From IMG/VR virus record IMGVR_UViG_2693429719_000003: a stretch of DNA of 27,117 nucleotides; one strand, 5' to 3'. The DNA is from a virus. Taxonomy: Duplodnaviria; Heunggongvirae; Uroviricota; Caudoviricetes. Both the position numbers and the translations under genes were made by a program. Positions within the stretch are counted from its first letter, which is position 1, and every line of letters starts with the position of its first letter. This document shows positions 1 through 24,266 of the stretch, in pieces. Below the pieces are notes generated by a model, which was not told the DNA's origin, searched no databases, and saw nothing but the letters and a program-made list of their open reading frames with translations.

Positions 1-405
1 ATGGATCAGGTCGTTGTTTTTCAAAAGATGTTTGAGCAAGTGAGAAAAGAGCAAAACTTCTCCTGGTTTTATTCAGAATTAAAACATCACCGTATTGCAC
101 ATTACATTTATTATCTGGCTACGGATAACATCAGAATTATTACTCACGATGACACGGTTTTGTTATTAAGAGGAACCAGGAACCTGTTAAAAGTTAGTAC
201 GACCAAGAACCCAGCTAAAATAAAAGAGGCCGCATTGCTTCATATTCGCGGAAAATCTACATTTCGGGAATACTGTTCAACACTGGCAGGCGCTGGCGTT
301 TTCCGGTGGGTTACTGATGTTAATCATAACAAACGCAGTTACTACGCCATTGATAATACGCTTTTATATATTGAAGATGTAGAAAATAATAAACCATTAA
401 TCTAG
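1..405 (+). CDS. DUF1398-family protein (YcgX/YdfO/YbcV-like), host chromosome flank
   Basis: 134-aa ORF starting at base 1; the sequence (MDQVVVFQKMF...YYLATDN...AGVFRWVT) matches my recollection of the E. coli DUF1398 family. In K-12 the DUF1398 gene ycgX lies just outside the icdC end of prophage e14, the same arrangement as here. Confidence 0.75.
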   Translation: MDQVVVFQKMFEQVRKEQNFSWFYSELKHHRIAHYIYYLATDNIRIITHDDTVLLLRGTRNLLKVSTTKNPAKIKEAALLHIRGKSTFREYCSTLAGAGVFRWVTDVNHNKRSYYAIDNTLLYIEDVENNKPLI

Positions 406-612
406 CTAAAGTTGGGAGCTTAAAAAATGCTTCATAATTCAGTAAGGCATTAGCATAATGGAAATAAAAGTGCAGAGACTATCCCTATGGATGATTAATA
501 CTGTCTTTTTATTGCTCCCCATAAATAATCACCAGACCAATACGATCAAATTGATATTTGAAATGTGTTCACTTGACTTTTGATACGTTATTTTATAACG
601 GTTAACATATTT

Positions 613-643
613 ATAAAAACAACGGGCGTGTTATACGCCCGTT
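613..643 (-). terminator. rho-independent terminator downstream of the icd 3' fragment
   Basis: Perfect 9-bp stem AACGGGCGT (621-629) / ACGCCCGTT (635-643) with a 5-nt loop; on the minus strand it is followed by GTTTTT (615-620) and lies about 25 nt past the icd stop codon. Confidence 0.6.
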
Positions 644-666
644 ATAATATTTAACACATGTGGTAA

Positions 667-831
667 TTACATATTTTTGATGATCGCGTCACCAAACTCG
701 CTGCATTTCAGCAGGTTAGCGCCTTCCATCAGACGTTCGAAGTCATAGGTTACGGTCTTGGCGTTGATTGCGCCTTCCATACCTTTAACAATCAGGTCTG
801 CGGCTTCAGTCCAGCCCATATGGCGTAACAG
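667..831 (-). pseudogene. icd: icd 3'-terminal fragment (about 54 codons, isocitrate dehydrogenase C-terminus); attachment-site duplication marking the prophage/host junction
   Basis: Minus-strand translation [53 protein letters not shown], stop at 667-669. This matches the Icd C-terminus; homology stops abruptly upstream (ILL instead of MML) and no icd body is present. Phage 21 and e14 integrate in icd and duplicate this segment. Confidence 0.85.
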
Positions 832-1020
832 TATATAAAAACCATGAATTCAAGTCATTGATATTTAATGATAAAAATTATTTTATTGTCTTTTTATTAG
901 CCAAAATAAACTTTATTCAACCGTTTGATTTCATTGACGTTCGTTTATATTTTGGGGAAAGGTTTTCTCTACCATTTATATCCAAATTACAAGTCTACAT
1001 TTTATTAACATCTCAATACA

Positions 1021-1051
1021 TGTGAGGCCTTGTAGACCTTTGTGAGGCCTT
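1021..1051. promoter_or_regulatory. direct repeat TGTGAGGCCTT x2 (20-bp periodicity), candidate integrase arm-type sites
   Basis: Identical 11-mers at 1021-1031 and 1041-1051, about 190 bp on the phage side of the icd core homology. An IHF-consensus match (AATCAAACGGTTG, minus strand, 918-930) lies in the AT-rich stretch between. Confidence 0.3.
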
Positions 1052-1314
1052 ATGTGTCTCAGTTTTGTCCCACCTTGTATTACGACTTGCATAGCCAATG
1101 AAGATAAATGTGACGACAAACGGCGCAGCAGTCTTCTTTTCCTTCATACTTTCCCCACCCAGCATGCATACCTTCTACCATAACTGTAGTGAATGTCTGT
1201 TATGAGCGAGTAGCGGAAGTTAGGGCTACAAGATGACTAATTAAGTTGCGGTAATTAAGTACAGGTTATGGACTTCCTGATCACGATGCCTTCTAACTCG
1301 TCAGTAGCTGGCTA

Positions 1315-1606
1315 AGAATTGATAACCAGGTAAGCAATTGTGTCTCTCGTGGAGCTTTTAAGCGGGATGCTAACGGATTTAACCCGCTTACTGACGCAGG
1401 AATAATCCGGACAGCGAAGCGGGAGATTCATCATGGTGGAAATGGCAAGTTCAGAATAACCTTGCGGGCCCCCCGCGAAGCAGTTTTTGGTTTGTCGTAC
1501 CATGACTGAATGGTCGACTCATCAAGCCGGAATGTCAGTGAACCACGATTGACGAGCGCCTTGTTGTAGGTGTTCCAGTTGGTGATTTTTAGCTTTTTTT
1601 TGCCAT
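1315..1606 (-). pseudogene. IS903-type transposase, 5' fragment, frameshifted and truncated
   Basis: ATG at 1604-1606 (minus strand) is followed by an A8 homopolymer (T-run 1594-1601 on plus) that shifts the frame after the MAK start. The two fragments appear as ORFs 1431..1658 and 1312..1503 in different frames; only about the first 115 codons are present. Confidence 0.8.
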
Positions 1607-1682
1607 GAGATACTGCTACAAGACCGTAATGTGGTGATCTGATCCTGATATCTGCCAAAAGTTCGATTTATTCAACATAGCC
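1315..1682 (-). mobile_element. IS903-group (IS5 family) insertion sequence remnant: left terminal inverted repeat plus 5' part of the transposase gene, truncated
   Basis: Minus-strand end sequence GGCTATGTTGAATAAATCGAACTTTTGG (1655-1682) matches the IS903 terminal inverted repeat as I recall it (GGCTTTGTTGAATAAATCGAACTTTTG). The downstream ORF fragments (KKKLKITNWNTYNKALVNRGSLTF...; ...MNLPLRCPDYSCVSKRVKSV...) match the IS903 transposase N-terminus. Homology ends near 1315. Confidence 0.85.
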
Positions 1683-1784
1683 CTTTCCAGTTGTAATCCT
1701 TATACAAAAGTTCATCTTTGGCTATATCAGTCTTAAAAATCCCAGTATATTATTTGCCAAACAACACCGGTCTTATAAGGACAT

Positions 1785-1808
1785 GCCCGTGCCCGTGCCC
1801 GTGCCCGG
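1785..1808. repeat. hexanucleotide tandem repeat GCCCGT x3 plus GCCCGG
   Basis: gcccgtgcccgtgcccgtgcccgg read directly in the sequence; a GC-rich microsatellite in an AT-rich region about 70 bp upstream of ORF A. Confidence 0.9.
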
Positions 1809-1817
1809 CTTAATCAT

Positions 1818-1843
1818 TTGACTAAAATCTCAAAATGTATACT
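1818..1843 (+). promoter_or_regulatory. candidate sigma70 promoter for cargo ORF A
   Basis: TTGACT (1818-1823) and a TG-TATACT extended-10-like element (1836-1843); the spacer is short (14 nt), so the call is weak. An AAGGAA Shine-Dalgarno follows at 1862-1867. Confidence 0.3.
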
Positions 1844-1874
1844 GAATAAACACTCTATCTAAAGGAAATTATCA

Positions 1875-2384
1875 GTGAAAGCATCCGATTGGATTCAACA
1901 AAACATACGACACTCAGCACAACTGGAACCTAATACACTCGAAGCAGTATCCGACTTCACTCTTATGTGGTCGATTTTTGAGGCTTCAGAAGCTCATAAT
2001 GAGAATGTTGTAGAGCAGATTGGGGTTCTTTCAAAGCGAGTCGCAAGGGATATGCCATCAGATGCGATCGACTCCCAGTTATCATATTGGTCTAAACGCT
2101 ATATACATGAAAGCGGTGAACCAACAGAGCATTTCAATTACCTCTATTTTAGAGAACTTTCACAAACTGTGAAATCACTTAACGTACTAAGAAATGAAGA
2201 AACTTCTTTTGAAGATAAAATCGAAGTGTGCCTCTTAATTGTCTATAGGTATCGAAATAATTTATTTCACGGTATCAAAGATATCACGTTGCTAAATGCA
2301 CAGGTAGAAAATCTTCGGAACGCAATAGAATTATTACAAATAATTATGCCATATAGCGGGAGATACCTTTTTCTCGGGGCCTAA
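1875..2384 (+). CDS. hypothetical 169-aa protein with an Rx4H (RNNLFH) HEPN-like motif; cargo gene A
   Basis: ORF with GTG start preceded by AAGGAA 7 nt upstream; AT-rich. Motif R127-N-N-L-F-H132 fits the HEPN Rx4-6H signature in a small, apparently helical protein. No recognisable homology beyond that. Confidence 0.7.
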   Translation: MKASDWIQQNIRHSAQLEPNTLEAVSDFTLMWSIFEASEAHNENVVEQIGVLSKRVARDMPSDAIDSQLSYWSKRYIHESGEPTEHFNYLYFRELSQTVKSLNVLRNEETSFEDKIEVCLLIVYRYRNNLFHGIKDITLLNAQVENLRNAIELLQIIMPYSGRYLFLGA

Positions 2385-2404
2385 TTAGCTATATGAAGCA
2401 GTGG

Positions 2405-2434
2405 AGTCTATTTCAATTATAATCTAAATAGACT
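2405..2434 (+). other. stem-loop downstream of ORF A (possible weak terminator)
   Basis: Perfect 9-bp inverted repeat AGTCTATTT (2405-2413) / AAATAGACT (2426-2434) with a 12-nt loop; the downstream T-run is poor. Confidence 0.25.
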
Positions 2435-2752
2435 CACTTCCATTGGTGTTTTGAATTGGTCGATGGGTTTTGTTATGGCTGTCCAATATGAGCGAAGAGC
2501 AGATTGTGTGGTTCAATACAGAATCACGATCCTTTATTAAGATAAGATTCAGCGATAAAGAAGGTTTTTATATTTTAATTTATAAGAAGAATTTTTGTTG
2601 TGCGCCTATACAAATAATTAATTTTATAGTAATGAGTTTCTCAATGACTTATCAAAGTGAAAATCATTCTGGAATGAGGCTAAAAGCGACGCGGAATTAA
2701 AAAAGCTTTCATCTTTGAAATATTGAAGTATTTCCCTCTCTATATCACTAGA

Positions 2753-2778
2753 CTGACAATAACTAAAGAGCTATAATG
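2753..2778 (+). promoter_or_regulatory. candidate promoter for cargo ORF B (consensus -10 TATAAT)
   Basis: Perfect TATAAT at 2773-2778, 32 nt upstream of the ATG; only a weak -35-like CTGACA at 2753-2758 with a short spacer. Confidence 0.3.
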
Positions 2779-2809
2779 CAATTATTTCAAATTATTAAAG
2801 GGTGGGGGT

Positions 2810-4045
2810 ATGAATAGCACGTTAAAAGAACTTGAGAGAAATTGCGCGCCAATAGATTTTATTGACCCATTGGCTCGATTGGTCTTAGATGATTTAGCTA
2901 TGTGGGCAAATGATAATATATACTCAAAACAATCTGGGTGTTTAACTTATGAATTGCCTCTTGATGGAAACATCAATGCAGCGTGTATAAGTTATCATGA
3001 CTCACGCTATCGAACCCATATTAAAATAAACCTGGGAATGGTTCAGGAAATCTACATCCAGTCATTTACCTATCCAGGTTACATTAAATATCTAGAAAGT
3101 GGAAATTGGCATTTCAACGCTCTTGATGAACCCTTTAGTGATGCTGAATTTTTATTCGAAGGTGGCATCCCTCCAAGAGTTAACGCGTCTGACACGGTCA
3201 CTCATATGGTAGAGCTATACAAAAGCATTCCTAACAACAGCAATACCATGTGGACTGATGAAGAATTAATTTGCCGTTTTGCCATGTTCGAATTAATGAT
3301 TGCGTGGATATTTTTTCATGAACTTGCGCATCACGTACAAGGGCACTACAAGATCAAAGGTGAAATAAAAGAATCGGCTACTTATTACGAATTAGATTAC
3401 TCAAGCAACATTAATAATTCCAATCCTGAGGTAACTCCCAGCGTCATCCAAAAGAACATTGACCAGCATGCCCGAGAGATACTTGCAGACCTCGAAGGTA
3501 TGTATTTAACACTCAGAATGATGGTGAGGAATGACACATTAACACCACCTAACACGTTTTTGCTTTTATATGTCCAAACCTCAATGTTTAATGTATTCTA
3601 TAAATTATCTGAGGGAAAGTATGCGGAGTTAGATAGCGTTAAAGTTTCTCACCCCCACCCTGTAATTAGAAACAAATTCGTACACGCCCTGTATGTTTCT
3701 GTGATGAAATGGGAATTGGATAATGATATATACCAAGATTATCGTCACTCTGTTAGCCGAGGTCTTGAATATTATACTGTAAAGTCATCATTGTTAGCTG
3801 GAATGATATGGGCAATGAGACAACCTGATTACAGTCCAGATGTAATGCCCCAATTTCTTAAATTTAGTGATGAGACCGAGCATGCCGCAGATTATAACTA
3901 TCTCAGGGAATTGACCTTAAGCGCTGAAAGGCAATCATCTATCATATCACTCATGCATATCATCGATGATGACTCAGATAATATTTTTAAATTAACAAAA
4001 TTAGACAAGCTATTCACTCATTTTTTAAATGTTAATGAAGAATAA
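2810..4045 (+). CDS. hypothetical 411-aa protein with an HExxH zinc-metallopeptidase motif (FFHELAHHVQGH); cargo gene B
   Basis: Long AT-rich ORF with a G-rich RBS (GGGTGGGGG) directly upstream of the ATG. HELAH at residues 170-174 with further His at 175 and 179 and acidic residues 40-60 aa downstream, resembling ImmA/IrrE (M78)-type or gluzincin motifs. The rest of the protein is unrecognised. Confidence 0.85.
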   Translation: MNSTLKELERNCAPIDFIDPLARLVLDDLAMWANDNIYSKQSGCLTYELPLDGNINAACISYHDSRYRTHIKINLGMVQEIYIQSFTYPGYIKYLESGNWHFNALDEPFSDAEFLFEGGIPPRVNASDTVTHMVELYKSIPNNSNTMWTDEELICRFAMFELMIAWIFFHELAHHVQGHYKIKGEIKESATYYELDYSSNINNSNPEVTPSVIQKNIDQHAREILADLEGMYLTLRMMVRNDTLTPPNTFLLLYVQTSMFNVFYKLSEGKYAELDSVKVSHPHPVIRNKFVHALYVSVMKWELDNDIYQDYRHSVSRGLEYYTVKSSLLAGMIWAMRQPDYSPDVMPQFLKFSDETEHAADYNYLRELTLSAERQSSIISLMHIIDDDSDNIFKLTKLDKLFTHFLNVNEE

Positions 4046-4272
4046 GATACGATGATTAGTGTTCAATTTCACCAGGGATCTGAACACCTGTCATTTGTAC
4101 AGGGCACTGTTACAGTCCTGACAACCCTAGAGTTTAATCAACTCATAGATCTCTAACTCATCACCGACTTAATGTTTATATAGCGGAATGAGCTTTCCAT
4201 GTCAGATATAACAATGTCCGCTTCTGGCACATAGCAGCCCTAGAGACAGTGGCGTAAAGTCATGGAGGACCG

Positions 4273-4298
4273 ATGGGAGGAGGCACAAATCCTCCCAT
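4273..4298. other. perfect 9-bp stem-loop in the B-C intergenic region
   Basis: ATGGGAGGA (4273-4281) / TCCTCCCAT (4290-4298) with an 8-nt loop; it is followed by an A-run rather than a T-run, so it is not a canonical plus-strand terminator. Confidence 0.3.
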
Positions 4299-4417
4299 AC
4301 AAAAAATACGTAAAATCGATAACAGATTGAAATAATTCAATATTCTCACTATCAGAAGCTGACCGGCCAGCCGCAGCACTTTCTTGCAGACGACGAGCCT
4401 GCGGTTTCAACTCCACC

Positions 4418-4451
4418 AGCCCACCAATCATTATTGGGCTTTTTCGTTTTT
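4418..4451 (+). terminator. possible rho-independent terminator between ORF B and ORF C
   Basis: 6-bp stem AGCCCA / TGGGCT with an 11-nt loop, followed by TTTTCGTTTTT (4441-4451). The stem is marginal. Confidence 0.3.
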
Positions 4452-4581
4452 CTTCACCTGCAAGCAAACCGTTGTATCATGGCGGAATGAAGATGAGCTA
4501 GGAATAATCTTATAAATCAGCTCAATATTCATATAAAAACATTTCGAACTTTGGTGTACAAAACTACATAGGGATAACTTT

Positions 4582-5784
4582 ATGTCTCTTCGTTTCAGAC
4601 AAACCTTTACTCTATTTCCTGGCGTTCGACTCAACATTGGCAAGCGTGGAATAAGTGCAAGCATTGGCGTGCCTGGCGCAACTGTCAATGTTGGTAAAAA
4701 AGGGGTTAGAGCAACTGTCGGATTACCGGGCACAGGCTTATCTTATACTACACCTACCTTGCCCTATGATGATGGATACTCAGTTACCAATCCATTAAAT
4801 CCAGCCCCTACAGAACCTCATTTGGAGTCTGGGTCATCTCCAGAAAACACACCATCGAACGCTAAAATATATATGCCTGTAGCTGGCATGAATGAAATAT
4901 CCAGCGCTTCGGTAGAAGTCCTTACAAGTACCTCCCTTTTACCTTTACGAGATTTGATTGCTAAAGCACGAGAACAAAGAGCAGAGATAAAAGCAGATCT
5001 TCAAGAGGCTCTTGCCGAAGAATCAAAACAAAAAAGCGAGCTGGCTCGACGCAAATCAAGTCTATTCCGTTGGTTTTACAAACGACGCATCGCAGAACTT
5101 GAGACACTACTCCCCCTAACCCAAGCTGAGATATCTCGCCTAGTTTCATGGGAAGACAGCACAAAAATAGCCATAACATTCGAGAGCAGTGATGCTTCAC
5201 AGCGCGCATATGCAGCGATGGTCCATGCATTTGATATGTTAAAATCGAGTGTCAAAAAATGGGATATTACTGCAGATAAAGCTACAGACCAGTTTGCTGA
5301 AAGAACATTAGCAACCCGGTCTGTTAATCGTCACCCAGTTACCTTTGATTTTAGTTCAACGGATCTCATTCAATTTACAGGGCGTGCGATGAGGTTTGAA
5401 AATGTAAATGGAGACGATATTTTGCTTTATCCTGGAGTTGCAGTCATACCACGAGCTGATGGAGCATTCGCTCTGATTGATTTACGCGAATTACAAATTA
5501 GTTCAGAATATCTAAGATTCCATGAGGAAGAAGGTGTTCCCAGTGACTCACGCATAGATGGTTATACATGGGCGAAAACGAATAAGAATGGCTCACCAGA
5601 CCGTCGTTTTAAAGACAACTACCAAATCCCTATTTGCATTTATGGAAATATTACTTTCCATTCTCAAACAGGGGTAACTGAAGAATATATGGTATCAAAT
5701 GCAGATGCCGCGCACGCCTTTGCTGAGGCAGTAAAACGCTATCAGATTTCACTCACAGAAACAGAAGCGTTGGTACAAGCCTGA
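4582..5784 (+). CDS. hypothetical 400-aa protein: DUF4236-like N-terminus, central coiled coil, uncharacterised C-terminal domain; cargo gene C
   Basis: N-terminus RFRQTFTLFPGVRLNIGKRGISASIGVPGATVNVGKKGVRATVGLPGTGLSY matches the DUF4236 motif as I recall it. Residues about 120-175 are Lys/Glu/Ala-rich and heptad-like (coiled coil). The C-terminal 220 aa or so are unknown. Confidence 0.85.
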   Translation: MSLRFRQTFTLFPGVRLNIGKRGISASIGVPGATVNVGKKGVRATVGLPGTGLSYTTPTLPYDDGYSVTNPLNPAPTEPHLESGSSPENTPSNAKIYMPVAGMNEISSASVEVLTSTSLLPLRDLIAKAREQRAEIKADLQEALAEESKQKSELARRKSSLFRWFYKRRIAELETLLPLTQAEISRLVSWEDSTKIAITFESSDASQRAYAAMVHAFDMLKSSVKKWDITADKATDQFAERTLATRSVNRHPVTFDFSSTDLIQFTGRAMRFENVNGDDILLYPGVAVIPRADGAFALIDLRELQISSEYLRFHEEEGVPSDSRIDGYTWAKTNKNGSPDRRFKDNYQIPICIYGNITFHSQTGVTEEYMVSNADAAHAFAEAVKRYQISLTETEALVQA

Positions 5785-5826
5785 TTTATCGCCGATATGG
5801 GGACGAATCGTAGCCCCCCCTCGAAC

Positions 5827-5866
5827 AAAAAAAACCTTAAGAACCAGACTATTATGGCTGGTTCTT
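5827..5866 (-). terminator. strong rho-independent terminator on the minus strand (candidate end of the late tail-fibre transcript)
   Basis: Perfect 9-bp stem AAGAACCAG (5839-5847) / CTGGTTCTT (5858-5866) with a 10-nt loop, followed on the minus strand by a T8 run (A-run 5827-5834 on plus). Confidence 0.6.
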
Positions 5867-5883
5867 ATACGGAGGATTTGTTA

Positions 5884-5912
5884 TTGTACAACTCTTCTAT
5901 CTGGTATATTTA
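5884..5912 (+). promoter_or_regulatory. candidate sigma70 promoter for cargo ORF D
   Basis: TTGTAC (5884-5889), 17-nt spacer, TATTTA (5907-5912), about 80 nt upstream of the ATG at 5993. Confidence 0.4.
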
Positions 5913-5992
5913 CGGATAGAACTGTTCAGGCTACTCAATCCTTTTTAAGTACAAATGAACAGATAGAAATAGTTATATTGCAAGGAGCTATC

Positions 5993-6781
5993 ATGCACAC
6001 TGAGTATATATGGCGATACCTTGACATAGAGAAATTCTCTATGTTACTCGAACAAAATGCTTTATTTTTTTGCTCAGCAAAAAATTTTGAAGATCCGTTC
6101 GAAGGTGAATTTGCTTGGGGACATACTGGCTATAAAAAATTCATTGAGACACAGGAAAAACTATGCGCTACTCATGGTGCCGGCATGGACTTAGATCCTT
6201 TCATGGCATTCAATTTAAAGACACTTAAGGAAATAAGCGAGAGGACATATATAAGTTGCTGGCATTGTAACGAACATGAATCTGAAGCTATGTGGAAGCT
6301 GTATTGTAAAAATCCCGCTAAAGGCGTTGTCATAAAATCAAAGAAAAAAAACCTCCAAAGCCAACTTGAAAATAATAATTTAAACAAACTACAATTAAAA
6401 CACGTAAAATACGTAAAAAATTTCTGGATAAAACAATACAATCCAGAATCAGATGTATTCTTTAACAAGAGACCATCTTTCGAATACGAAAAAGAGTTTA
6501 GAGCTATTTTTCAAGAGAATACCTTTAACACTCCACCTGTAAAGGGAAAACTAGTCCCTGTATCTCTTAACAATCTGTTGGAAGAAATAAGGATTTCACC
6601 TTTCGCAGATAAGGATTTCAAAAATGAAGTTTTACAAATTTCAAAAAAATATGGACTAGATCTAAAAGTCAAAAACTCTGAAATTGAAATGCATCCCATC
6701 ATGCATGTTGAGGAAGAAATAATTGCAGAAGGCCCCAATTGGTATCAGTCAAAAATCAGATTGGCAATACGTGATGCTTAA
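5993..6781 (+). CDS. hypothetical 262-aa protein, DUF2971-like N-terminal motif; cargo gene D
   Basis: ATG at 5993 with a consensus AAGGAG Shine-Dalgarno at 5983-5988 (the ORF track's TTG at 5978 is an upstream in-frame extension). N-terminal YIWRYLDIEKFSMLLEQNALFFCSAKNFEDPFEG resembles the DUF2971 signature. Very AT-rich. Confidence 0.8.
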   Translation: MHTEYIWRYLDIEKFSMLLEQNALFFCSAKNFEDPFEGEFAWGHTGYKKFIETQEKLCATHGAGMDLDPFMAFNLKTLKEISERTYISCWHCNEHESEAMWKLYCKNPAKGVVIKSKKKNLQSQLENNNLNKLQLKHVKYVKNFWIKQYNPESDVFFNKRPSFEYEKEFRAIFQENTFNTPPVKGKLVPVSLNNLLEEIRISPFADKDFKNEVLQISKKYGLDLKVKNSEIEMHPIMHVEEEIIAEGPNWYQSKIRLAIRDA

Positions 6782-6884
6782 TCTTATATTGAAGTTTTTT
6801 ATGTCTCCTGCTGAAACTAGCTAAAATTTACCAAGCCGCAGCACGTTATTGCATACAACATGTATGCGGCGTATCTCAAAACGA

Positions 6885-7469
6885 TTACTCCATAACAGGG
6901 ACAGCAGGCCACTCAATATCCGGTGCTACTGATGTATCAACACGGTTCAGCAACACCCGATACTTCTTCCATGCTGCCAGCAACGACGCCTCTTCTTCCG
7001 TTGCGATCTCCAGATCCACAGCATCCTGAAGTGGCGCAATATGCTCATTCGCTGCCTGCATCAGGCTGTTTTTTGTTTCTTCCGCCTCCCGGATCCGGAA
7101 TAGTTTTTCTGCTTCTGCATCTTTCACCCAGGCTGTGCCGTTCCACTTCTGAAACTCCCCTTCCGGGGATAACCAGGTGACATTTTCCGGTAATGAGCCG
7201 AGTTCAGAAATAAATAACGCGTCGCCGGAAGCCACGTCATAAACCGTTTTACCCCGATGATCTTCAACGAGATGCCACGATGCCTCATCACTGTTGAAAA
7301 CAGCCACGAAGCCAGCCGGAATATCTGGCGGTGCAATATAGGTACTGTTTGCTGGCAGACCTGTATGAGGCGGAATATATGCGTCACCTTCACCAATAAA
7401 TTCATTAGTTCCGGCCAGCAGATTATAAATTTTTATGGTCCGTGGTTGTTCACTCATTCTGAATGCCAT
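6885..7469 (-). CDS. tfa: tail fibre assembly protein Tfa
   Basis: 194 aa, matching lambda Tfa as I recall it; its start codon overlaps the stf stop by 1 nt. Confidence 0.95.
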
Positions 7470-10384
7470 TATGCAAGCCTCACAATGTAGTTAAATGCGA
7501 TGTTTTTGACGGTGTTTTCCGCGTTACCAGCAGCGTTAACGGTGATGGTGTGTCCATGTGAGCCAATCGCAACAGAGTGCGTATGAGCACCAATACCGAC
7601 AGTATGTGCGTGAGCACCTGCAGATGCAGCTGTGCCGCTGACACTATGAGTGTGCGCTCCTGCAGCACTTGTATTCACACTGGCCGCAGACACTACCTTA
7701 TGTACTGACCCATTTTGTGACCACTGGCTGACTGCTGATGCGCCTGTGACACTATGAGTATGGTTTCCGGCACTTGCGGCTGTACCGCTCACACTGTGCG
7801 TGTGCGCCCCGGTGTTATTCGTGGATTTAGTGCCGTAATCAAACGACGATGTGGTTTTCGTCCCCAAATCCGTACTGGATGCGCTGGCGCTGTGGGTGTG
7901 CGATTTAATGCCGTCCTGTTCCTGAGACAATACGGCCCGACCACTGGCAGGTTTGCCCTTAATCGTCCAGCCACGCATATCAGGGATCACGCCTGACGGA
8001 TAAGCGGCTGCAAGTTTCGGGTATGCAGATTTGTCAAAAGTCTGCCCCTGCATCAGGGCATAGCCAGACGGAACGGTATCTGATGGCCACGGGATTGGTG
8101 CGCCAGGCGGATAAAACTGCTCTGATGGCGTATAGAGTGAATAAACCGTACCGTCCGTTAACCCTTCCGGCTTATTAGCAGAATATGCTGGTGACGTATG
8201 AATCGTCACGCTGGCATTACTGGTATAATCCCATTGAATATTTACACCAGTCGCATAATTTCCGATTGCAACGTAAATATCGTAAGTATCACCAGATGTA
8301 TTGACCCAGGCAAAATTTGTAAACCCTGTCGATGTGCGCTGCCATAAAGCACCAGTAATCCCCTTCGGATTACCATTACCTGCACGCAAAACAAGTTCAG
8401 ATATACCTGCCTGTTGAGGTGACCCCACGTTAAATCCCGCGCCACCAATCAACGTAATTGAAACAACAGAACTCGCCTGTGGCATGGTTACCGTTGCTAA
8501 TTTGAACCAACCAGCACCACCGCTGAATGACATTGTTGTTGAGTTAAGCGTACCAATATCTTTCGGCGTCAGTGTTATATCCGATGAAAGCGCCTTACCA
8601 TTCACCTTACGGGCAGAAGGTACCCGACCATTCGCATTATCATTAGCTGCTTTCACTGCTTTCGGTGTCGCGGCAAGCGTTTCAGATGCGCTGTTGGTTG
8701 CACTACTGAGCTGGACAATTCCTTTTTGTGCTGTCGTAGCGTCCTGAGCAGTATATTTCCCGTTAGCAAGGTCATAGGCTGCCTTTACCGACTTTGGCGT
8801 TGCCGCCAGCATTTCAGATGTGCTGTTGGTCGCGTTGCTAAGCTGAACTATCCCTTTCTGTGCTGTCGTTGCATCCTGTGCGGTGTATTTCCCGTTAGCC
8901 AGCTCATACGCGGCCTTAACGGCTTTTGGCGTTGCCGCCAGTGACTCGGAAGTGCTGTTAGTCGCACTGCTGAGCTGTACTATCCCCTTTTTCGTCGTGC
9001 TCGCATCCTCAAGCGCCACGGCGGATGCAATATCCTCTGCCCGTTTAGCTGCTGTCTCGGCGCGCGTTGCCGCGGATTCCGCCGTACTTTTGCTCTGAGC
9101 TGCCGCCGTCGCACTGCCAGCTGCCTCTGTCGCCTTCGTGGATGCCGTCGTGGCGCTGCTCTTCGCTGCTGACGCTTGTCTGGTCGCCTCATCTTTTGAA
9201 GCAGACGCAGATGATGCCGATGACGCCGCCGAACTGGCTGACGATGCGGCAGCCGTTTTTGAGGATTCTGCGCTGGTTTCCGACGCTTTCGCGTTCGTTT
9301 CGGATGTCTTCGCTGCGGAAGCAGAACTCGCTGCTGCGCTGGCCTGTTCAGTGGCTTCGCCAGCCTTCGTTGTGGCTGTTGAAGCAGACGATGCGGCACT
9401 TTCTGCCGACTTTCCGGCAGCGGTGGCACTGGCTGAGGCCTGCCCGGCACTTGTTGACGCGGCACTGGCAGATGATGCAGCCGCTGTTTTTGAGCCTGCC
9501 GCAGCTGAGGCACTCTGTGCTGCTGCCGTTTCAGAGGACTTGGCGTTTGTCTCAGACGTCTTTGCCGCCTTCGCGGAATTTCCTGCCGCCGTTGCCGAGG
9601 AAGCTGCACTACTGGCGCTTGATGATGCGTTCGTTTCTGATGATTTTGCCGCCTCTTTTGAAGCCGACGCATCCCTGGCTGAGGTGGCAGCTTCTGACGC
9701 TTTCGTGGTCGCGGTGGATGCAGAAGTGGCGGCTGATTGTTCTGACGCTGCCGCATTCGTTTCTGACGTTTTCGCCGCACCGGCACTGGTAGCCGCCGCG
9801 CTTTTTGAGGACTCTGCAGCGGCAGCACTTTTTGAGGCTTCAGTGGCCTTTGTTGATGCCGTTCCTGCGCTGGAAGACGCTGACTGAGCCGACGACGCGG
9901 CCTGTCCGGCTGACGTGCTGGCTGCACGTGCTGAATCTGCAGCATCAGTCGCACGGGTTGCCGCCTCACTGGCAGATGTGCTGGCATCACTGGCTGACTT
10001 CTTTGCGGCTGCCGTGTTCTGTGCCACCACGGACGCGTTACGCGCCACCTCTTCCACCATCAGTTCAAAACGACGCAGTGCCTCCGGACGGGCATCATCC
10101 TCCGTCATGGCACCGAGAAAATCATTCAGCGTACCGGGTTGAGAATCTTCATACACGGTGATGGTCCCGGCATGTGACGGCGGGAATCCCTTCACCAACA
10201 GAATAACGCTGTACTGACCGTACTCAACGTCCATGCTGTAACGCCCGGCTTCATCCGGATTTTCTGAGGCCAGCGTGTTCACCACCACAGTGGTACTGTT
10301 ACGTTTTGCTTTCAGCTGGATTGTGCAGTTCTGTACCGGTTTTCCTGTGCCGTCTTTCAGTACACCTGAAATCTTTACTGCCAT
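7469..10384 (-). CDS. stf: side tail fibre protein Stf (expanded: long Ala/Ser/Thr-rich region, triplicated 44-aa fibre repeat, His-rich GxHxH C-terminal tip)
   Basis: N- and C-termini match lambda Stf. The true start is the ATG at 10382-10384 ([12 protein letters not shown]...), two codons inside the track ORF. 971 aa versus 774 aa for lambda Stf as I recall it. Confidence 0.93.
8588..8983. repeat. three tandem 132-bp (44-aa) repeats inside stf
   Basis: Protein repeats [41 protein letters not shown] occur three times (residues about 468-599); the DNA is near-identical between copies. Confidence 0.85.
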
Positions 10385-10394
10385 ATTCACCCCA

Positions 10395-10422
10395 CAAAAA
10401 AGCCCGCCTGAACCGGCGGGCT
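10395..10422 (-). terminator. rho-independent terminator downstream of lom
   Basis: Perfect 8-bp GC-rich stem AGCCCGCC (10401-10408) / GGCGGGCT (10415-10422) with a 6-nt loop, followed on the minus strand by T6 (A-run 10396-10401). Confidence 0.6.
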
Positions 10423-10448
10423 GTCATAACACTGTGTTACCTGGCTAA

Positions 10449-11048
10449 TCAGAATTTATAACCGACACCCACGATGAAACCGTCAGTGCGCCAGTCACCA
10501 CTGCCGGAGCCTTCATAAGCAATATCAATGGCCACGGATTCGGTCGGGTTAAACTGCACGCCAGCTCCCCACGCCAGAGACGTGTTGCTGTGGCGACCGT
10601 CATCACTTCCGGTCAGCACGTCGTGCGTTTTCCCCTTGTTGTCAATTACGCGGAGATAATCCCCGGAGAAAGTCGACACACGGCTGTAAGCCACACCCGC
10701 CATCGCATACGCGCTGAACCATTCATTCACGCGCACAGACGGCCCCGCCATTACGCTGAACCAGCGGTTACGAACGGAATCTTCATGCCAGCGGGTATCG
10801 CTGTAATGGGTCAGCTGGCGATTATTGTCTCCTGCATAGCTGAATGACGTCACCATCCCCAGTGTGTCCGTAAACTCATAACGGTATTTCACGTTAATCC
10901 CGTTCAGATCATCGCTGCCGGGAACGTTCGTCGAGGCATGAAGATACCCCGCGCTCAGCGTGGACTGATGTTCAGACGCCCATGCAGGCGCACCGGATAC
11001 GGCCAGACAAATGGCTGCGGACAAAATGGCGGCATAAAGTTTACGCAT
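10449..11048 (-). CDS. lom: outer membrane protein Lom (Ail/Lom family)
   Basis: 199 aa with a signal peptide (MRKLYAAILSAAICLAVSGAPAWA); matches lambda Lom. Confidence 0.93.
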   Translation of the reverse strand: MRKLYAAILSAAICLAVSGAPAWASEHQSTLSAGYLHASTNVPGSDDLNGINVKYRYEFTDTLGMVTSFSYAGDNNRQLTHYSDTRWHEDSVRNRWFSVMAGPSVRVNEWFSAYAMAGVAYSRVSTFSGDYLRVIDNKGKTHDVLTGSDDGRHSNTSLAWGAGVQFNPTESVAIDIAYEGSGSGDWRTDGFIVGVGYKF

Positions 11049-11072
11049 AATTACCTCTCGCTTTTCTGCAAT

Positions 11073-11096
11073 AAAAAAGGCGTCATTTCTGACGCC
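11073..11096 (-). terminator. hairpin plus T-run between J and lom (partial terminator)
   Basis: 7-bp stem GGCGTCA (11079-11085) / TGACGCC (11090-11096) with a 4-nt loop, followed on the minus strand by T6 (A-run 11073-11078). Confidence 0.45.
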
Positions 11097-11114
11097 CGTT
11101 CTGGGTTATAAAAT

Positions 11115-14516
<3,402 letters not shown>

Positions 14517-14573
14517 TCATGCTCCATAAACGATAAAACCGCCCGGAGGCGGTTTCACATAAAACATTTTGCA

Positions 14574-15245
14574 TCAGCGACCAATCACCACAACCTGACC
14601 ACCGTCCCCTTCGTCTGCCGTGCTGATCTCCTGAGAAACCACGCGTGACCCCACGCGCATTTCACCGTACAGAACCGGCAGAACATTGCCCTGGGCAACC
14701 ATGTTATCCAGTGAGGAGAAATAGGTGTTCTGTTTGCCGTTATCCGTTGTCTGTGTACGGGGAGTTCTGGCTTTCGGTGCCAGCATCTGCGCCACACCAC
14801 CGAGCACCATACTGGCACCGAGAGAAAACAGGATGCCGGTCATACCACCGGCCCCAATGGCTGCCCCCCATGCTGCAAGGGTGGCTCCGGCGGTAAAGAA
14901 TGATCCGGCAATGGCGGCAGCCCCTAGGACAATCTGGAATACGCCACCTGACTTGGCCCCGGCGACTCTGGGAACAATATGAATCACAGCGCCATCAGGC
15001 AGAGTCTCATGTAACTGCGCCGTTAACCCGGACGTGCTGACGTCCCGCCCGGCAATCCGTACCTGATACCAGCCGTCGCTCAGTTTCTGACGAAACACCG
15101 GGAGCTGTGTGGCCAGTGCGCGGATGGCTTCAGCCCCCGTTTTCACACGAAGGTCGATGCGGCGGCCAAATCGTTGCAAATCCCCGTAAAGGCAGATGCG
15201 CGCCATGCCCGGTGACGCCAGAGGGAGTGTGTGCGTCGCTGCCAT
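14574..15245 (-). CDS. I: tail tip assembly protein I
   Basis: 223 aa, matching lambda gpI. Confidence 0.95.
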   Translation of the reverse strand: MAATHTLPLASPGMARICLYGDLQRFGRRIDLRVKTGAEAIRALATQLPVFRQKLSDGWYQVRIAGRDVSTSGLTAQLHETLPDGAVIHIVPRVAGAKSGGVFQIVLGAAAIAGSFFTAGATLAAWGAAIGAGGMTGILFSLGASMVLGGVAQMLAPKARTPRTQTTDNGKQNTYFSSLDNMVAQGNVLPVLYGEMRVGSRVVSQEISTADEGDGGQVVVIGR

Positions 15246-15886
15246 TTGTCGGTATACCTCTCTCGTTTGCTCAGTTGTTCAGGAATATGGTGCAGCAGCT
15301 CGCCATCACCACAGTAAATGGCGGCATGATTCGGCACCGATGAACCAAAACAGCACAGCAGCACATCGCCCGGTTGTGCTGATGACAACGGCACCTGATA
15401 CAGCCCTGTGGCCTCCAGATTATCCAGATAGAGATTCTGACCGTGACGCCACCAGTCATCCTCGCGATGAAAATCCGGCATCTCAATCCCCGCCAGATGA
15501 TAAGCATCCCGGAACAGCGTGTAACAGTCCGTCACCCCGTGCTCAAAGCGCCGCCCGGTGAGATGCGGCACACAGCGGAACTTATGAATCGTCCCCCGGC
15601 AGACCAGCCACCACGGCAAATCACTCTGCACCTGCAGCCGCCGGTCGGCCTCACTCAGCCAGGGCAGACCACCGGGGTGGCTGTGGACCAGCGCCACAAT
15701 CTCACCGTGCAGTGTTGCCTGCAGCCAGTCATCCGGCGACATCCGGAAATACGCCTCCGGCTCACCGGAGATATTCACGCAGGGAAAATATCTTTCCCCT
15801 TCCGGCGTTCTCACCACGAAGCCACACGACTCCGCTGGCGCACATCGCCGGGCGTGCGCCAGAATCGCTGATTCTGTCTGTGTCAT
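15143..15886 (-). CDS. K: tail tip assembly protein K (JAMM/MPN motif HSHPGG plus NlpC/P60-like C-terminal part)
   Basis: Matches lambda gpK from its N-terminus MTQTESAILAHARRCAP. The ORF as it stands is 247 aa and its 3' end overlaps the I start by about 100 nt, so the exact C-terminus is uncertain. Confidence 0.9.
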   Translation of the reverse strand: MTQTESAILAHARRCAPAESCGFVVRTPEGERYFPCVNISGEPEAYFRMSPDDWLQATLHGEIVALVHSHPGGLPWLSEADRRLQVQSDLPWWLVCRGTIHKFRCVPHLTGRRFEHGVTDCYTLFRDAYHLAGIEMPDFHREDDWWRHGQNLYLDNLEATGLYQVPLSSAQPGDVLLCCFGSSVPNHAAIYCGDGELLHHIPEQLSKRERYTDKWQRRTHSLWRHRAWRASAFTGICNDLAAASTFV

Positions 15887-15891
15887 GGGAT

Positions 15892-16590
15892 TTACTGCGA
15901 AAGTTTGTTAATGGAAAGGAAGCCGCCAAAGTTGCCGACGTTATTGCGGAACTTACAACCGCTCAGGCATTTGCTGCATTTATCCTTCGTGATATCGGAC
16001 GTTGGCTGGTCATATTCATCCGCGACCGCCGGACCGTGATAACCGCACTCATCGCCGCGATAGGTCCAGGTGCAGGTGTTGGCCAGCATGATACGTCCCG
16101 GAAAAACAGCGCCGTCCGTTTCCGTCGGCGTGGACAGTACAAAAGAGGCACTCACCGCGCTCAGTTCGCTGCACTGCTCAATGCGCCAGCGGCTGATCAC
16201 CTCCAGCTCCGGATCGGCGTCACTGTTTCCGTTGACGAAGTTCACCGCATCCAGAAAACGGGCGTAAACCTTACGCCGGACCACCGTTCCGCCGACCAGA
16301 CTCTGCAGATCTTCCGCCATCCCGGTGACCATACCGTACAGGTTAGAAACCGTCAGCGTGGGGCGTGTACTGGTGCCTTTGCCATTCAGTTCAAAACCAC
16401 TCCCCTGAATGGGATACGGCTGATACTGTCGCCCCTGCCAGGTGACCGGCTCACCTTTTTCGTTCTGCTCATTACAGAAAAAATAACGTTCTCCACCGAC
16501 CTCTGTCAGATCGATTTCCCAGAGCACCACGCTGGCCGACTGCTCCGCACGGGTGCATTCATTCAGTGTTTCCTGCCGGATATCCTGCAT
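15892..16590 (-). CDS. L: tail tip protein L
   Basis: 232 aa, matching lambda gpL. Confidence 0.95.
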   Translation of the reverse strand: MQDIRQETLNECTRAEQSASVVLWEIDLTEVGGERYFFCNEQNEKGEPVTWQGRQYQPYPIQGSGFELNGKGTSTRPTLTVSNLYGMVTGMAEDLQSLVGGTVVRRKVYARFLDAVNFVNGNSDADPELEVISRWRIEQCSELSAVSASFVLSTPTETDGAVFPGRIMLANTCTWTYRGDECGYHGPAVADEYDQPTSDITKDKCSKCLSGCKFRNNVGNFGGFLSINKLSQ

Positions 16591-20296: not shown

Positions 20297-20311
20297 CGCT
20301 GACTCTCCGGA

Positions 20312-21052: not shown

Positions 21053-21059
21053 ATCGTCC

Positions 21060-22030: not shown

Positions 22031-22041
22031 ACATCCCCCTT

Positions 22042-22395: not shown

Positions 22396-22406
22396 AGCGC
22401 CTCCCG

Positions 22407-22802: not shown

Positions 22803-22843
22803 GGACTCCTCCACAGAGAGAAAATGGCCCCGAAGGGCCATGA

Positions 22844-23869: not shown

Positions 23870-23924
23870 AAAAAAATCCCGTAAAAAAAGCCGCACAGGC
23901 AGCCTTTAGTGATGAAGGGTAAAG

Positions 23925-24257: not shown

Positions 24258-24266
24258 AAACATCCC

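What the first reader, a model, noticed from the sequence alone, without database searches (positions are those of the whole stretch)
613..1051. Prophage/host junction inside icd: duplicated icd 3' end, native terminator and candidate arm sites
The icd C-terminal coding fragment (667-831) with its terminator, and no icd body upstream, is the signature of phages that integrate into icd (phage 21, e14) and carry a replacement 3' end. This fixes the prophage boundary and shows the cargo island is inside the prophage. The direct repeats TGTGAGGCCTT x2 (1021-1051) and an IHF-consensus match (918-930) on the phage side could be arm-type recombination sites. No iraM-sized ORF is present between icd' and the DUF1398 gene, unlike my recollection of K-12.
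Basis: partly seen in the sequence, partly recalled or inferred. Interest (0 to 1): 0.45.

Follow-up and report, generated by a model that had tools for sequence, protein, structure and literature searches.

The report
Phage 21-type prophage end in icd

Summary
Window 667-830/831 (minus strand) holds the last 54 codons plus stop of icd. Its terminator is at 619-645, and there is no icd body upstream. The host flank to the left is ymgL-like/ycgX. To the right, 832-1217 is homologous to the phage 21 attP arm (93-94% over about 600 bp) and not to e14.

The junction falls at 830|831. The arm is 100% identical to a prophage in E. coli SC418, while the adjoining icd fragment is only 92.7% identical. 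SC418 shows the complete structure: about 49 kb, with xis, an Int 98% identical to phage 21 Int, three tandem dodecamers and intact icd at the far end.

The arm-type site in the window is the dodecamer TTTTGGGGAAAG at 950-961. Both exact IHF consensus matches in the 27-kb window lie in the arm (851-863, 918-930).

TGTGAGGCCTT x2 is not an arm site. It has no copy at the int end. It forms an 18-bp hairpin that folds only on the int-sense strand. The same module follows four unrelated att types, including lambda and DLP12. It is probably a tI/sib-like terminator or retroregulator.

Absence of iraM is normal strain variation. About 27% of complete E. coli genomes carry this junction. Known biology; low interest.

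The parts
1..405 (+). ycgX (DUF1398), host chromosome flank
   Evidence: Pfam DUF1398 E=3.8e-47. 96% identical to the K-12 ycgX region. RefSeq annotation of syntenic loci.
458..583 (+). ymgL-like small ORF, host flank
   Evidence: ORF list. Same position as the annotated ymgL/hypothetical gene in SC418 and Z1323PEC0014. A weak sub-threshold Rfam STnc150 match at 505-653 overlaps it.
616..661 (-). icd 3' untranslated segment with the terminator. In K-12-type strains this 46-bp segment flanks both sides of the iraM-ymgK segment; the window has one copy and no iraM.
   Evidence: Window 616-661 aligns to both K-12 L003 17084-17129 and 17946-17991.
619..645 (-). icd rho-independent terminator hairpin (scores on both strands)
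   Evidence: Terminator scan: 11 pairs, 6 G-C, T-run. Identical to the hairpin after K-12 icdC. The whole 616-666 segment is 100% identical to phage 21's copy.
667..830 (-). Displaced 3' end of icd (54 codons plus stop, no N-terminal body). This is the B' side of attR and the equivalent of K-12 icdC.
   Evidence: Translation. Alignment to K-12 icd, K-12 icdC and phage 21. RefSeq annotates the same fragment as a partial isocitrate dehydrogenase pseudogene in SC418 and Z1323PEC0014.
815..830 (.). Core interval that must contain the Int crossover (CCCATATGGCGTAACA on the plus strand). The phage/host junction is 830|831.
   Evidence: icd homology ends at 830. The first attL/attR difference in SC418 is at window position 814. 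Identity to SC418 is 100% on the phage side and 92.7% on the icd side. The sequence is unique in the window.
851..863 (-). IHF consensus site proximal to the core (TATCAATGACTTG)
   Evidence: Exact WATCAANNNNTTR match. Kept as WATCARNNNNTTR in 18/18 unique related arms, with all but one substitution in the N positions.
918..930 (-).
   Evidence: Exact match. Identical in phage 21 and all retrieved arms, but part of it was in the retrieval pattern, so that conservation is biased.
950..961 (-). Arm-type Int-binding dodecamer (CTTTCCCCAAAA; TTTTGGGGAAAG on the plus strand). It is the outermost site of the P arm.
   Evidence: Only exact YYTTCCCCAAAA in 27 kb. Homologous position to the P-arm dodecamer of phage 21, whose GenBank record gives this consensus for the attP subsites. 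Same motif, same orientation, three times next to int in SC418. Present in 18/18 arms.
1018..1057 (+). Proposed tI/sib-like terminator or retroregulator.
   Evidence: MFE -19.5 kcal/mol, z = -3.5, 0/200 shuffles. The opposite strand gives z = +0.3. Flagged by the terminator scan. 95% of cells paired in 9 variants with no double changes. With lambda added, 2 pairs show changes on both sides. The same module lies beyond four unrelated att arms.
1030..1078 (+). Two TTGYN6TTGY (cII-box-like) motifs, 1030-1043 and 1065-1078
   Evidence: Two of the window's four matches fall within these 49 bp. The homologous positions are annotated as CII sites in phage 21 OL657228. Campbell's essay mentions cII boxes in a sib-like stem-loop segment downstream of the phage 21 int gene (PMC3530522).
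1013..1165 (-). 50-codon ORF ('putative membrane protein' in the phage 21 record); probably not a conserved protein gene
   Evidence: Intact in only 6/18 arms. Substitutions are spread evenly over codon positions and nonsynonymous changes are at least as frequent as synonymous ones. Homologues are only 'hypothetical', 29-79 aa, no Pfam.
832..1217 (.). Conserved phage 21-type attP arm module. Homology to phage 21 ends at about 1209-1217, where variable cargo begins.
   Evidence: BLAST to phage 21 M61865/OL657228 covers 616-1217 at 93.4% and 616-1209 at 94.0%. The conservation profile falls after about 1075.
1314..1648 (-). IS transposase remnant at the start of the cargo island
   Evidence: DDE_Tnp_1_5 fragments. 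RefSeq annotates a frameshifted partial transposase at the same place in SC418.

Best explanation
Window 613-1051 spans attR of a lambdoid prophage that has phage 21 integration specificity and sits inside icd.

The free phage carries this attP: P arm (two IHF sites and one dodecamer), core, its own copy of the last ~164 nt of icd with terminator, three dodecamers, then int.

Int-catalysed exchange within the 16-bp interval 815-830 joined the phage's icd copy to the body of host icd. That far end lies outside the window, and icd stays intact there. The resident icd 3' end and terminator were left here as a dead fragment, abutting the phage P arm.

Excision would need Int on the dodecamer at 950-961, bridged to the core by IHF bends at 851-863 and 918-930, plus Xis, acting together with attL.

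The TGTGAGGCCTT repeats lie about 60 bp outside the outermost arm site. They are the two strands of an RNA hairpin on the strand that continues from int in the excised phage. The most likely role is a tI/sib-like terminator or retroregulator of int transcripts. As in lambda, integration uncouples this element from int.

Shown here: the anatomy, the homologies, the junction position, motif conservation, and strand-specific folding.

Inferred: protein binding, the crossover point inside the 16 bp, and the hairpin's function.
For: icd fragment and terminator:
- Present at the stated coordinates.

Arm homology:
- Contiguous 93-94% match of 616-1217 to phage 21 attP.
- No match to the e14 end; 40% column identity.

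Junction position:
- Identity to SC418 steps from 100% (832-1075) to 92.7% (667-830) at the junction.

Complete structure in SC418:
- The partner end has xis and int, three dodecamers at L006 42410-42446, and full-length icd.
- Int is 98% identical to phage 21 Int.
- The rest of the window (7119-27117) is 98.2% identical to the tail and head genes of that prophage.

Arm sites:
- The dodecamer is the single exact match in 27 kb and is kept in 18/18 arms.
- Both IHF consensus matches of the window fall in the 130-bp arm. At the 851-863 site every substitution but one lies in the N positions, and the WATCAR/TTR letters stay within the consensus in 18/18 arms.

Geometry:
- The dodecamer centre is about 132 bp from the core centre. 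Lambda P1 is about 139 bp from its core centre.
- In phage 21 the outermost dodecamers are 397 bp apart. This fits my recollection that Wang et al. 1997 put the minimal attP between 366 and 418 bp. That paper was not available to me, so the figure is from memory.

Hairpin:
- Strand-specific fold and a U-run.
- It has the same position and strand as the lambda tI/sib hairpin, just beyond the outermost arm site.
- A homologous module abuts the arms of DLP12/argU, P22-SfII-type attP and lambda.
- Lambda's homologous copy lacks the U-run, but lambda has its own tI hairpin upstream. The 21-type has no other hairpin between the arm site and this one.
- Campbell describes exactly such a sib-like stem-loop with cII boxes downstream of the phage 21 int gene (PMC3530522).
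Against: - The window stops in the head genes, so int, attL and intact icd of this particular genome were not seen. They are inferred from SC418.
- The icd fragment is 98.2% (coding part) and 100% (terminator) identical to phage 21's own copy. 'Native' may therefore mean 'left by an earlier 21-like phage'.
- For the hairpin, no compensatory double changes occur among close relatives. The two seen come from lambda alone, on an automatic alignment.
- One stem position is C.A in 6 of 9 variants.
- The U-run is only four U after a 5-nt spacer.
- The stem is 18 bp with 7 G.U pairs, which is short for an RNase III substrate.
- The module is homologous to a second lambda hairpin, not to the sib hairpin itself.
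- SC418's prophage has a YdaT-type gene where cII would be, so the cII boxes may be irrelevant here.
Confidence: 0.9

Rival explanations
1. The element is e14 or an e14-type defective prophage, with e14 arm sites.
For: It uses the same attB in icd and leaves the same 165-bp displaced fragment as K-12 icdC.
Against: BLAST of window 1-1400 finds no match to the e14 right end between mcrA and icdC. Column identity of the arm to e14 is 40%, against 91% to phage 21. The K-12 e14 attL flank lacks the TTCCCCAAAA triplet that phage 21 and SC418 carry there. The window carries full lambda-like tail and head genes that e14 lacks.
Confidence: 0.02
2. TGTGAGGCCTT x2 are arm-type Int-binding sites of the P arm.
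For: They are an exact 11-bp direct repeat, 20 bp apart, on the phage side of the junction.
Against: - There is no copy within 1 mismatch in the other 49 kb of the matching prophage, int end included.
- The int end has three TTTTGGGGAARR dodecamers instead.
- The repeats are not conserved as repeats in phage 21, which has TGTGTGGCCTT and TGCGAGGCCTT.
- The same module is found next to att arms of unrelated integrases.
Confidence: 0.03
3. The icd fragment at 667-830 is not this lineage's original icd end. It is the copy brought in by an earlier 21-like phage, left in icd after that phage was lost by homologous recombination, then displaced by the present prophage.
For: - It differs from phage 21's own copy at only 3 of 164 coding positions and 0 of 51 terminator positions.
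- It is 87.8-95.7% identical to the five chromosomal icd ends compared: SC418 attR 92.7%, Z1323 attR 89.0%, K-12 icdC 90.9%, SC418 attL 95.7% and K-12 icd 87.8%.
- The host flank is only 95.5-96% identical to SC418 and K-12, so icd-end alleles are clearly mosaic.
- The iraM locus shows that successive events have stacked up at this site.
Against: Z1323PEC0014, another iraM-less strain, has the identical terminator segment continuous with the same host flank. That allele may simply be native to iraM-less lineages and be the source of phage 21's copy. The two histories cannot be separated with one window.
Confidence: 0.3
4. The hairpin serves the minus-strand small ORF 1013-1165 (for example a type I toxin with an antisense RNA), or only insulates the prophage from ycgX/ymgL read-through. 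On this view it is not an int retroregulator.
For: The ORF has a hydrophobic segment and is annotated as a membrane protein in phage 21. The hairpin is antisense to its 3' end. In the prophage state the hairpin faces transcription coming from the host flank.
Against: - The ORF is absent in 12/18 arms that still keep the hairpin.
- There is no codon-position bias, and nonsynonymous changes are at least as frequent as synonymous ones.
- The start codon varies between ATG and GTG.
- The module's constant feature is its position after an att arm on the int-sense strand.
Confidence: 0.12

Closest known systems
Phage 21 attP/attR in icd (GenBank M61865, OL657228; Wang et al. 1997 J Bacteriol 179:5705, cited from memory)
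   Same: - Same target gene.
- Same displaced 164/165-nt icd end and terminator.
- Arm 91% identical.
- Same dodecamer, at the same position and in the same orientation.
- Both IHF consensus sites kept.
- Hairpin and cII-like boxes at the same place.
- In the proxy genome SC418, Int is 98% identical and the three P' dodecamers are identical.
   Different: - The putative overlap reads TGTTACG instead of TGCTGCG. This is a synonymous Leu codon change, and both forms occur among related arms.
- The hairpin loop and upper stem differ, and the first cII-like box is TTGT...TTGT rather than TTGC...TTGC.
- The cargo beyond about 1217 is unrelated: phage 21 carries sitABC-type genes there.
e14 attR with icdC in E. 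coli K-12
   Same: Same attB in icd. Same logic of a phage-borne replacement 3' end and a displaced 165-bp pseudogene followed by the terminator (PMC6379469; PMC13626634).
   Different: The arm sequence is unrelated. The Int specificity is different (Campbell essay, PMC3530522). K-12 has iraM-ymgK after icdC; the window does not.
Lambda attP P arm and the tI/sib retroregulator
   Same: - Arm-type site about 130-140 bp from the core.
- IHF consensus sites lie between that site and the core.
- A hairpin sits on the int-sense strand just beyond the outermost arm site.
- Integration separates that hairpin from int.
   Different: - There is one P-arm dodecamer rather than two arm-type sites.
- The P' arm is stretched by about 210 bp of icd sequence.
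- The window's hairpin is homologous to a second lambda hairpin at about 27473-27509, downstream of tI/sib, and not to the sib hairpin.
- RNase III processing is untested.
DLP12 attR (argU) and P22/SfII-type attP
   Same: The same hairpin module, in the same orientation, lies immediately inside the displaced target-gene fragment and arm.
   Different: Different target genes, arms and integrases. In DLP12 the small ORF is absent and the hairpin starts only about 65 bp from the argU fragment.

Membership tests
Phage 21-type attR in icd | Displaced icd 3' end (~165 nt) with its terminator and no icd body upstream | tested here: met
   RefSeq annotates the same pseudogene in syntenic loci.
Phage 21-type attR in icd | Phage-side arm homologous to the phage 21 attP P arm | tested here: met
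   93.4% over window 616-1217. 91.4% over 832-1075.
Phage 21-type attR in icd | Arm-type dodecamer YYTTCCCCAAAA in the arm | tested here: met
   One exact match at 950-961, unique in 27 kb. The consensus comes from the OL657228 annotation. Conserved in 18/18 arms.
Phage 21-type attR in icd | Partner attL with a 21-type int/xis, three dodecamers, the phage icd copy and an intact icd | tested here: inconclusive
   These lie outside the window, whose right end is in the head genes. All are present in SC418, whose arm is 100% identical and whose structural genes are 98.2% identical.
Phage 21-type attR in icd | Int/Xis/IHF-dependent excision that restores attB | not testable with these tools
   Needs induction and PCR across icd, or in vitro recombination.
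e14 attR | Arm homologous to the e14 right end (mcrA-icdC spacer) | tested here: not met
   No BLAST match. 40% column identity.
Arm-type Int-binding sites (claimed for TGTGAGGCCTT) | Same motif repeated in the other arm next to int | tested here: not met
   0 matches at up to 1 mismatch in 49 kb of the SC418 prophage.
Arm-type Int-binding sites (claimed for TGTGAGGCCTT) | Motif travels with one integrase specificity | tested here: not met
   The module is found next to argU/DLP12, P22-SfII-type and lambda arms. About 2,250 E. coli genomes have the hairpin without the 21-type arm.
IHF binding sites | Match to WATCAANNNNTTR placed between the arm-type site and the core | tested here: met
   851-863 and 918-930, the only two matches in the window. 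Conserved.
IHF binding sites | IHF binding and bending | not testable with these tools
   Needs a footprint or gel shift.
Lambda tI/sib-type retroregulator | Stable hairpin on the int-sense strand just beyond the outermost arm site, uncoupled from int by integration | tested here: met
Lambda tI/sib-type retroregulator | U-run that makes the hairpin an intrinsic terminator (tI) | tested here: inconclusive
   CUCAGUUUUG gives four U after a 5-nt spacer. It passes the simple scan but is weak.
Lambda tI/sib-type retroregulator | Sequence homology to the lambda sib hairpin | tested here: not met
   It aligns with a second lambda hairpin downstream of tI/sib, not with sib.
Lambda tI/sib-type retroregulator | RNase III cleavage and int mRNA decay | not testable with these tools
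   Needs RNA work in rnc+ and rnc- hosts.

The most novel reading that the evidence does not exclude
The hairpin at 1018-1057, with its cII-like boxes, could be one copy of a widespread module that is independent of integrase type. It sits directly beyond the att arm in phage 21-type, DLP12/argU-type, P22/SfII-type and lambda elements, and is present in about 3,700 of 5,426 complete E. coli genomes.

In phages without a lambda-type pI promoter, it would terminate or retroregulate int transcripts, and possibly place int under cII control from downstream. Campbell described this mechanism as unresolved for phage 21.
Probability: 0.35. Interest if true: 0.35.

Novelty: already known. Interest (0 to 1): 0.12.

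Why it matters
The main value is for annotation.

- **Boundary.** The junction sets the prophage boundary to the base (830|831). It shows that the cargo genes at about 1.2-6.9 kb sit in the variable region of a phage 21-type prophage corresponding to lambda's b region.
- **Arm sites.** It corrects which short motifs are the recombination sites: the dodecamer at 950-961 and the two IHF sites, not the GGCCT-containing repeats.
- **Biology.** Integration into icd with a replacement 3' end has been textbook since about 1990, and roughly a quarter of complete E. coli genomes carry this very junction.
- **One loose thread.** The conserved strand-specific hairpin module beyond the arm, shared across integrase types, has a presumed role in int regulation in phage 21-like phages. 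I found no published resolution in the library searched.

Tried and rejected
**Literature not available**
- The primary att papers are not held: Wang et al. 1997 (PMC179457), Hill et al. 1989 (PMC210168), Mehta et al. 2004 (PMC331406). Statements about the 366-418 bp minimal attP therefore rest on memory.
- The svsR/co293 sRNA lead (PMC12803456) was followed and dropped. svsR lies in cI, not near att.
- The phage 21 genome announcement says nothing about att.

**Scans that led nowhere**
- An exact 33-mer of the window's icd' allele, intended to identify the source species, gave 0 hits in genome contigs.
- A gapped IHF-dodecamer pattern in genome contigs gave only chance hits in unrelated phyla. 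Both genome-contig scans are now spent and the host species remains unidentified.
- Rfam returned only sub-threshold matches (STnc150 at 31 bits against a gathering score of 60) and nothing for the hairpin.
- The lambda terminator scan did not flag tI. It was located by folding instead.
- The tRNA search near the O157 copy was negative. A BLAST of the adjoining DNA against the phage collection showed that the neighbouring arm matches P22/SfII-type attP.

**Tests that came out weak or negative**
- Covariation among nine close hairpin variants gave no double changes and no excess over shuffles. There is too little divergence.
- The small ORF as a real gene was rejected as unlikely.
- The e14 identity was rejected.
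Full report
**1. What is in the sequence**

Read on the minus strand, window 831-667 encodes [54 protein letters not shown] followed by a stop codon. This is the C-terminus of isocitrate dehydrogenase.

- The fragment aligns with the K-12 icdC pseudogene plus terminator at 91%.
- It aligns with the 3' end of K-12 icd, which is e14-derived, at 85%.
- K-12 icdC is also exactly 165 bp.
- An 11-pair stem-loop with a T-run follows the stop codon at 645-619, and it also scores on the plus strand.
- Left of it the window continues into a ymgL-like ORF and ycgX (DUF1398), 96% identical to K-12.
- Upstream of the fragment (832 onward) there is no icd sequence.
- TGTGAGGCCTT occurs exactly twice, at 1021-1031 and 1041-1051.
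- 918-930 is an exact IHF consensus match.

The only correction is that homology to icd starts at 830 rather than 831.

**2. Which element it is**

The DNA to the right of the fragment does not match the e14 end of K-12 (40% column identity). Instead, window 616-1217 matches the phage 21 int-att region (M61865, OL657228) at 93.4% in one piece (94.0% over 616-1209). The match is continuous because the free phage carries its own icd 3' end next to the arm.

The rest of the window is a lambda-like tail and head gene set.

E. coli SC418 (NZ_LR778147) carries the same prophage with the same cargo. Identity to SC418 is 99.55% over window 616-7305 and 98.2% over 7119-27117.

In SC418 the element is about 49 kb long. 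It ends with xis, int and a full-length icd next to rluE. Its Int is 98% identical to phage 21 Int.

**3. Where the junction is**

Against SC418, the phage side (832-1075) is 100% identical. The icd fragment (667-830) is only 92.7% identical. The same phage therefore sits next to different resident icd alleles, and the break falls at 830|831.

In SC418, attL and attR are identical from that boundary to window position 815 and first differ at 814. The crossover must therefore lie inside the 16 bp CCCATATGGCGTAACA (815-830). This sequence occurs once in the window.

Related arms carry either GCGTAACAG or GCGCAGCAG here, a synonymous Leu codon difference.

**4. The recombination sites**

The GenBank record of phage 21 marks three tandem subsites next to int with consensus YYTTCCCCAAAA. 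The sequence shows a fourth copy in the other arm.

- The window has exactly one perfect match to this consensus in 27 kb, at 950-961, at the homologous position.
- SC418 has the three tandem copies between int and the icd terminator, in the same orientation.
- All 18 distinct related arms collected from IMG/VR, phage 21 and E. coli keep the dodecamer.

The only two exact IHF consensus matches in the window are both in this arm, at 851-863 and 918-930 (0.82 expected for the whole window). At 851-863 all but one of the substitutions among relatives fall in the four N positions. The exception is phage 21's A-to-G change, which still fits WATCAR. The consensus letters are otherwise kept. The conservation of 918-930 is partly built into the retrieval pattern.

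The dodecamer centre is about 132 bp from the core centre. Lambda P1 is about 139 bp from its core centre.

In phage 21 the outermost dodecamers are 397 bp apart. This agrees with my recollection that Wang et al. 1997 placed the minimal attP between 366 and 418 bp. I could not read that paper.

**5. What the TGTGAGGCCTT repeats are**

No copy within one mismatch exists in the other 49 kb of the SC418 prophage.

Because AGGCCT is a palindrome, the two repeats pair with each other. The plus-strand RNA forms an 18-bp hairpin at 1018-1057 (-19.5 kcal/mol, z = -3.5, 0 of 200 shuffles as good). Phage 21's version folds at -23.5 kcal/mol with z = -4.5.

The minus strand does not fold (z = +0.3), because seven of the pairs are G.U. 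CUCAGUUUUG follows the hairpin, and the terminator scan flags it.

The plus strand is the strand that continues from int in the excised phage. The conserved block of the arm runs from the core to about 1075 and then decays.

A minus-strand ORF at 1013-1165 overlaps the hairpin.
- It is intact in only 6 of 18 arms.
- It shows no codon-position bias, and nonsynonymous changes are at least as frequent as synonymous ones.
- Its homologues are only 'hypothetical' proteins of variable length.
The hairpin's conservation is therefore not explained by coding.

**6. The hairpin is a module independent of integrase type**

A search of complete E. coli genomes with 832-1075 gave two classes of hit:
- 1,464 of 5,426 genomes have the whole arm next to an icd pseudogene.
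- About 2,250 more match only the hairpin segment, at other places.

Three such other places were examined:
- **DLP12 in a K-12 derivative.** The hairpin lies between envY and ompT, about 65 bp inside the displaced argU 3' fragment at the right end of DLP12.
- **An O157:H7 genome.** The hairpin directly follows DNA 97-99% identical to the P22/SfII-type attP.
- **Lambda.** The int-sense strand has a homologous stretch at about 27473-27509, downstream of the tI/sib hairpin at 27536-27585, which itself abuts P1.

The orientation relative to the displaced gene fragment, and hence to int, is the same in each case.

The lambda copy lacks the U-run, but lambda has its own tI hairpin. The 21-type has the U-run and no other hairpin between the dodecamer and this one.

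Covariation is weak:
- Among nine close variants, 95% of cells pair, four pairs vary on one side only, three are sometimes broken, and none changes on both sides.
- With lambda added, two pairs change on both sides. That rests on one sequence and an automatic alignment.

Campbell's 2012 essay makes three statements about phage 21 (PMC3530522):
- It has no cII box upstream of int.
- The mechanism was still being worked out.

Two TTGYN6TTGY motifs lie at 1030-1043 and 1065-1078. These positions are annotated as CII sites in OL657228.

My reading is that this is the tI/sib analogue of 21-type phages, which integration uncouples from int. Folding, placement and conservation are shown. Termination, RNase III processing and any cII role are inferred. 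I put this at about 0.5.

**7. iraM**

K-12 has icdC-iraM-ymgK-ymgL-ycgX. Window 616-661 aligns to both borders of the iraM-ymgK segment.

The second K-12 copy is a decayed icd terminator, followed by the same flank as in the window. The window, like Z1323PEC0014, therefore has the simple arrangement. In K-12-type strains iraM sits between two generations of icd terminators. That pattern suggests iraM is a relic of an earlier insertion at the same site.

Variable presence of iraM is known, and iraM has been described as being 'on e14' (PMC4045071). Its absence here is not remarkable.

**8. Origin of the icd fragment**

The fragment differs from phage 21's own copy at 3 of 164 coding positions and 0 of 51 terminator positions. 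It is 87.8-95.7% identical to the five chromosomal icd ends compared: the attR fragments of SC418 (92.7%), Z1323 (89.0%) and K-12 (90.9%), and the attL ends of SC418 (95.7%) and K-12 (87.8%).

Two histories fit. Either this allele is native to iraM-less lineages and is the source of phage 21's copy; Z1323 shares the terminator segment and flank. Or it was left by an earlier 21-like phage. I cannot decide between them with one window.

**9. Comparison with what is known, and verdict**

Integration of e14 and phage 21 into icd is established. It includes a phage-borne replacement 3' end and a displaced pseudogene (PMC6379469; PMC13626634; PMC3530522; NC-SV at the phage 21 site, PMC12803456).

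The window is a standard member of the phage 21 type, and about 27% of complete E. coli genomes have the same junction. The finding is real and correctly interpreted in its main claim. It is wrong about the arm-type repeats. It is not novel.

The cargo genes next to it were looked at only for context:
- an IS remnant;
- a 169-aa ORF with a weak PD-T4-5 match;
- a 411-aa HExxH protein with a weak Lit-like motif;
- a DUF4236 protein;
- a DUF2971 protein matching the candidate defence family PDC-S31.

Noticed in passing
window 616-661; L003 (K-12) 17084-17129 and 17946-17991: In K-12 the 816-bp iraM-ymgK segment is bracketed by the icd terminator and a decayed second copy of it. The window has one copy and no iraM. 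This suggests iraM is a relic of an older element inserted at the same icd site.
   Followed up: partly
window 1012-1075; L056 3501-3560; L055 3501-3563; lambda about 27473-27509: A roughly 60-nt strand-specific hairpin module is shared by prophages with unrelated att sites (icd, argU/DLP12, P22-SfII type, lambda). It always lies just beyond the arm on the int-sense strand. It is present in about 3,700 of 5,426 complete E. coli genomes.
   Followed up: partly
L024 73-234 (lambda 27372-27533, plus strand): Lambda has an unannotated 53-codon ORF on DNA homologous to the window's 1013-1165 ORF. The proteins agree only at KEKK(S/T)AA and then diverge through frame changes, which argues against a conserved protein.
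   Followed up: partly
window 505-653 (+): Sub-threshold Rfam match to STnc150, a Salmonella Hfq-binding RNA (31 bits; gathering score 60; E = 2e-4). It overlaps the ymgL-like ORF and ends in the bidirectional icd terminator.
   Followed up: no
window 1224-6880: The cargo island between the att arm and the tail-fibre assembly gene contains an IS transposase remnant (1314-1648), a 169-aa ORF (weak PD-T4-5 match), a 411-aa HExxH protein (weak Lit-like motif), a DUF4236 protein, and a DUF2971 protein matching the candidate defence family PDC-S31 (E = 1e-20). Phage 21 and Z1323PEC0014 carry entirely different cargo at the same spot.
   Followed up: partly
window 826 and 828: The putative overlap region is polymorphic (TTA against CTG for Leu; TGTTACG against TGCTGCG), both in resident icd alleles and among phage arms. 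Because overlap identity normally matters for integration, this could bias which hosts each phage variant enters.
   Followed up: no
window 1-615 compared with 832-7305: The host flank is only 95.5-96.3% identical to any complete E. coli genome examined, while the prophage arm and cargo are 99.5-100% identical to those of SC418. The prophage is therefore shared across diverged hosts. The source species could not be identified.
   Followed up: partly
L006 35376-36215 (SC418 prophage): The near-identical prophage in SC418 has a YdaT-domain gene where lambda has cII. The cII-like boxes at window 1030-1078 are TTGT-type rather than the TTGC of phage 21 and may be vestigial in this phage. The immunity region of the window's own prophage was not seen.
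   Followed up: no
window 715: The displaced icd fragment has AAC (Asn) where the six compared icd ends have AAA or AAG (Lys). This is consistent with drift in a dead fragment.
   Followed up: no
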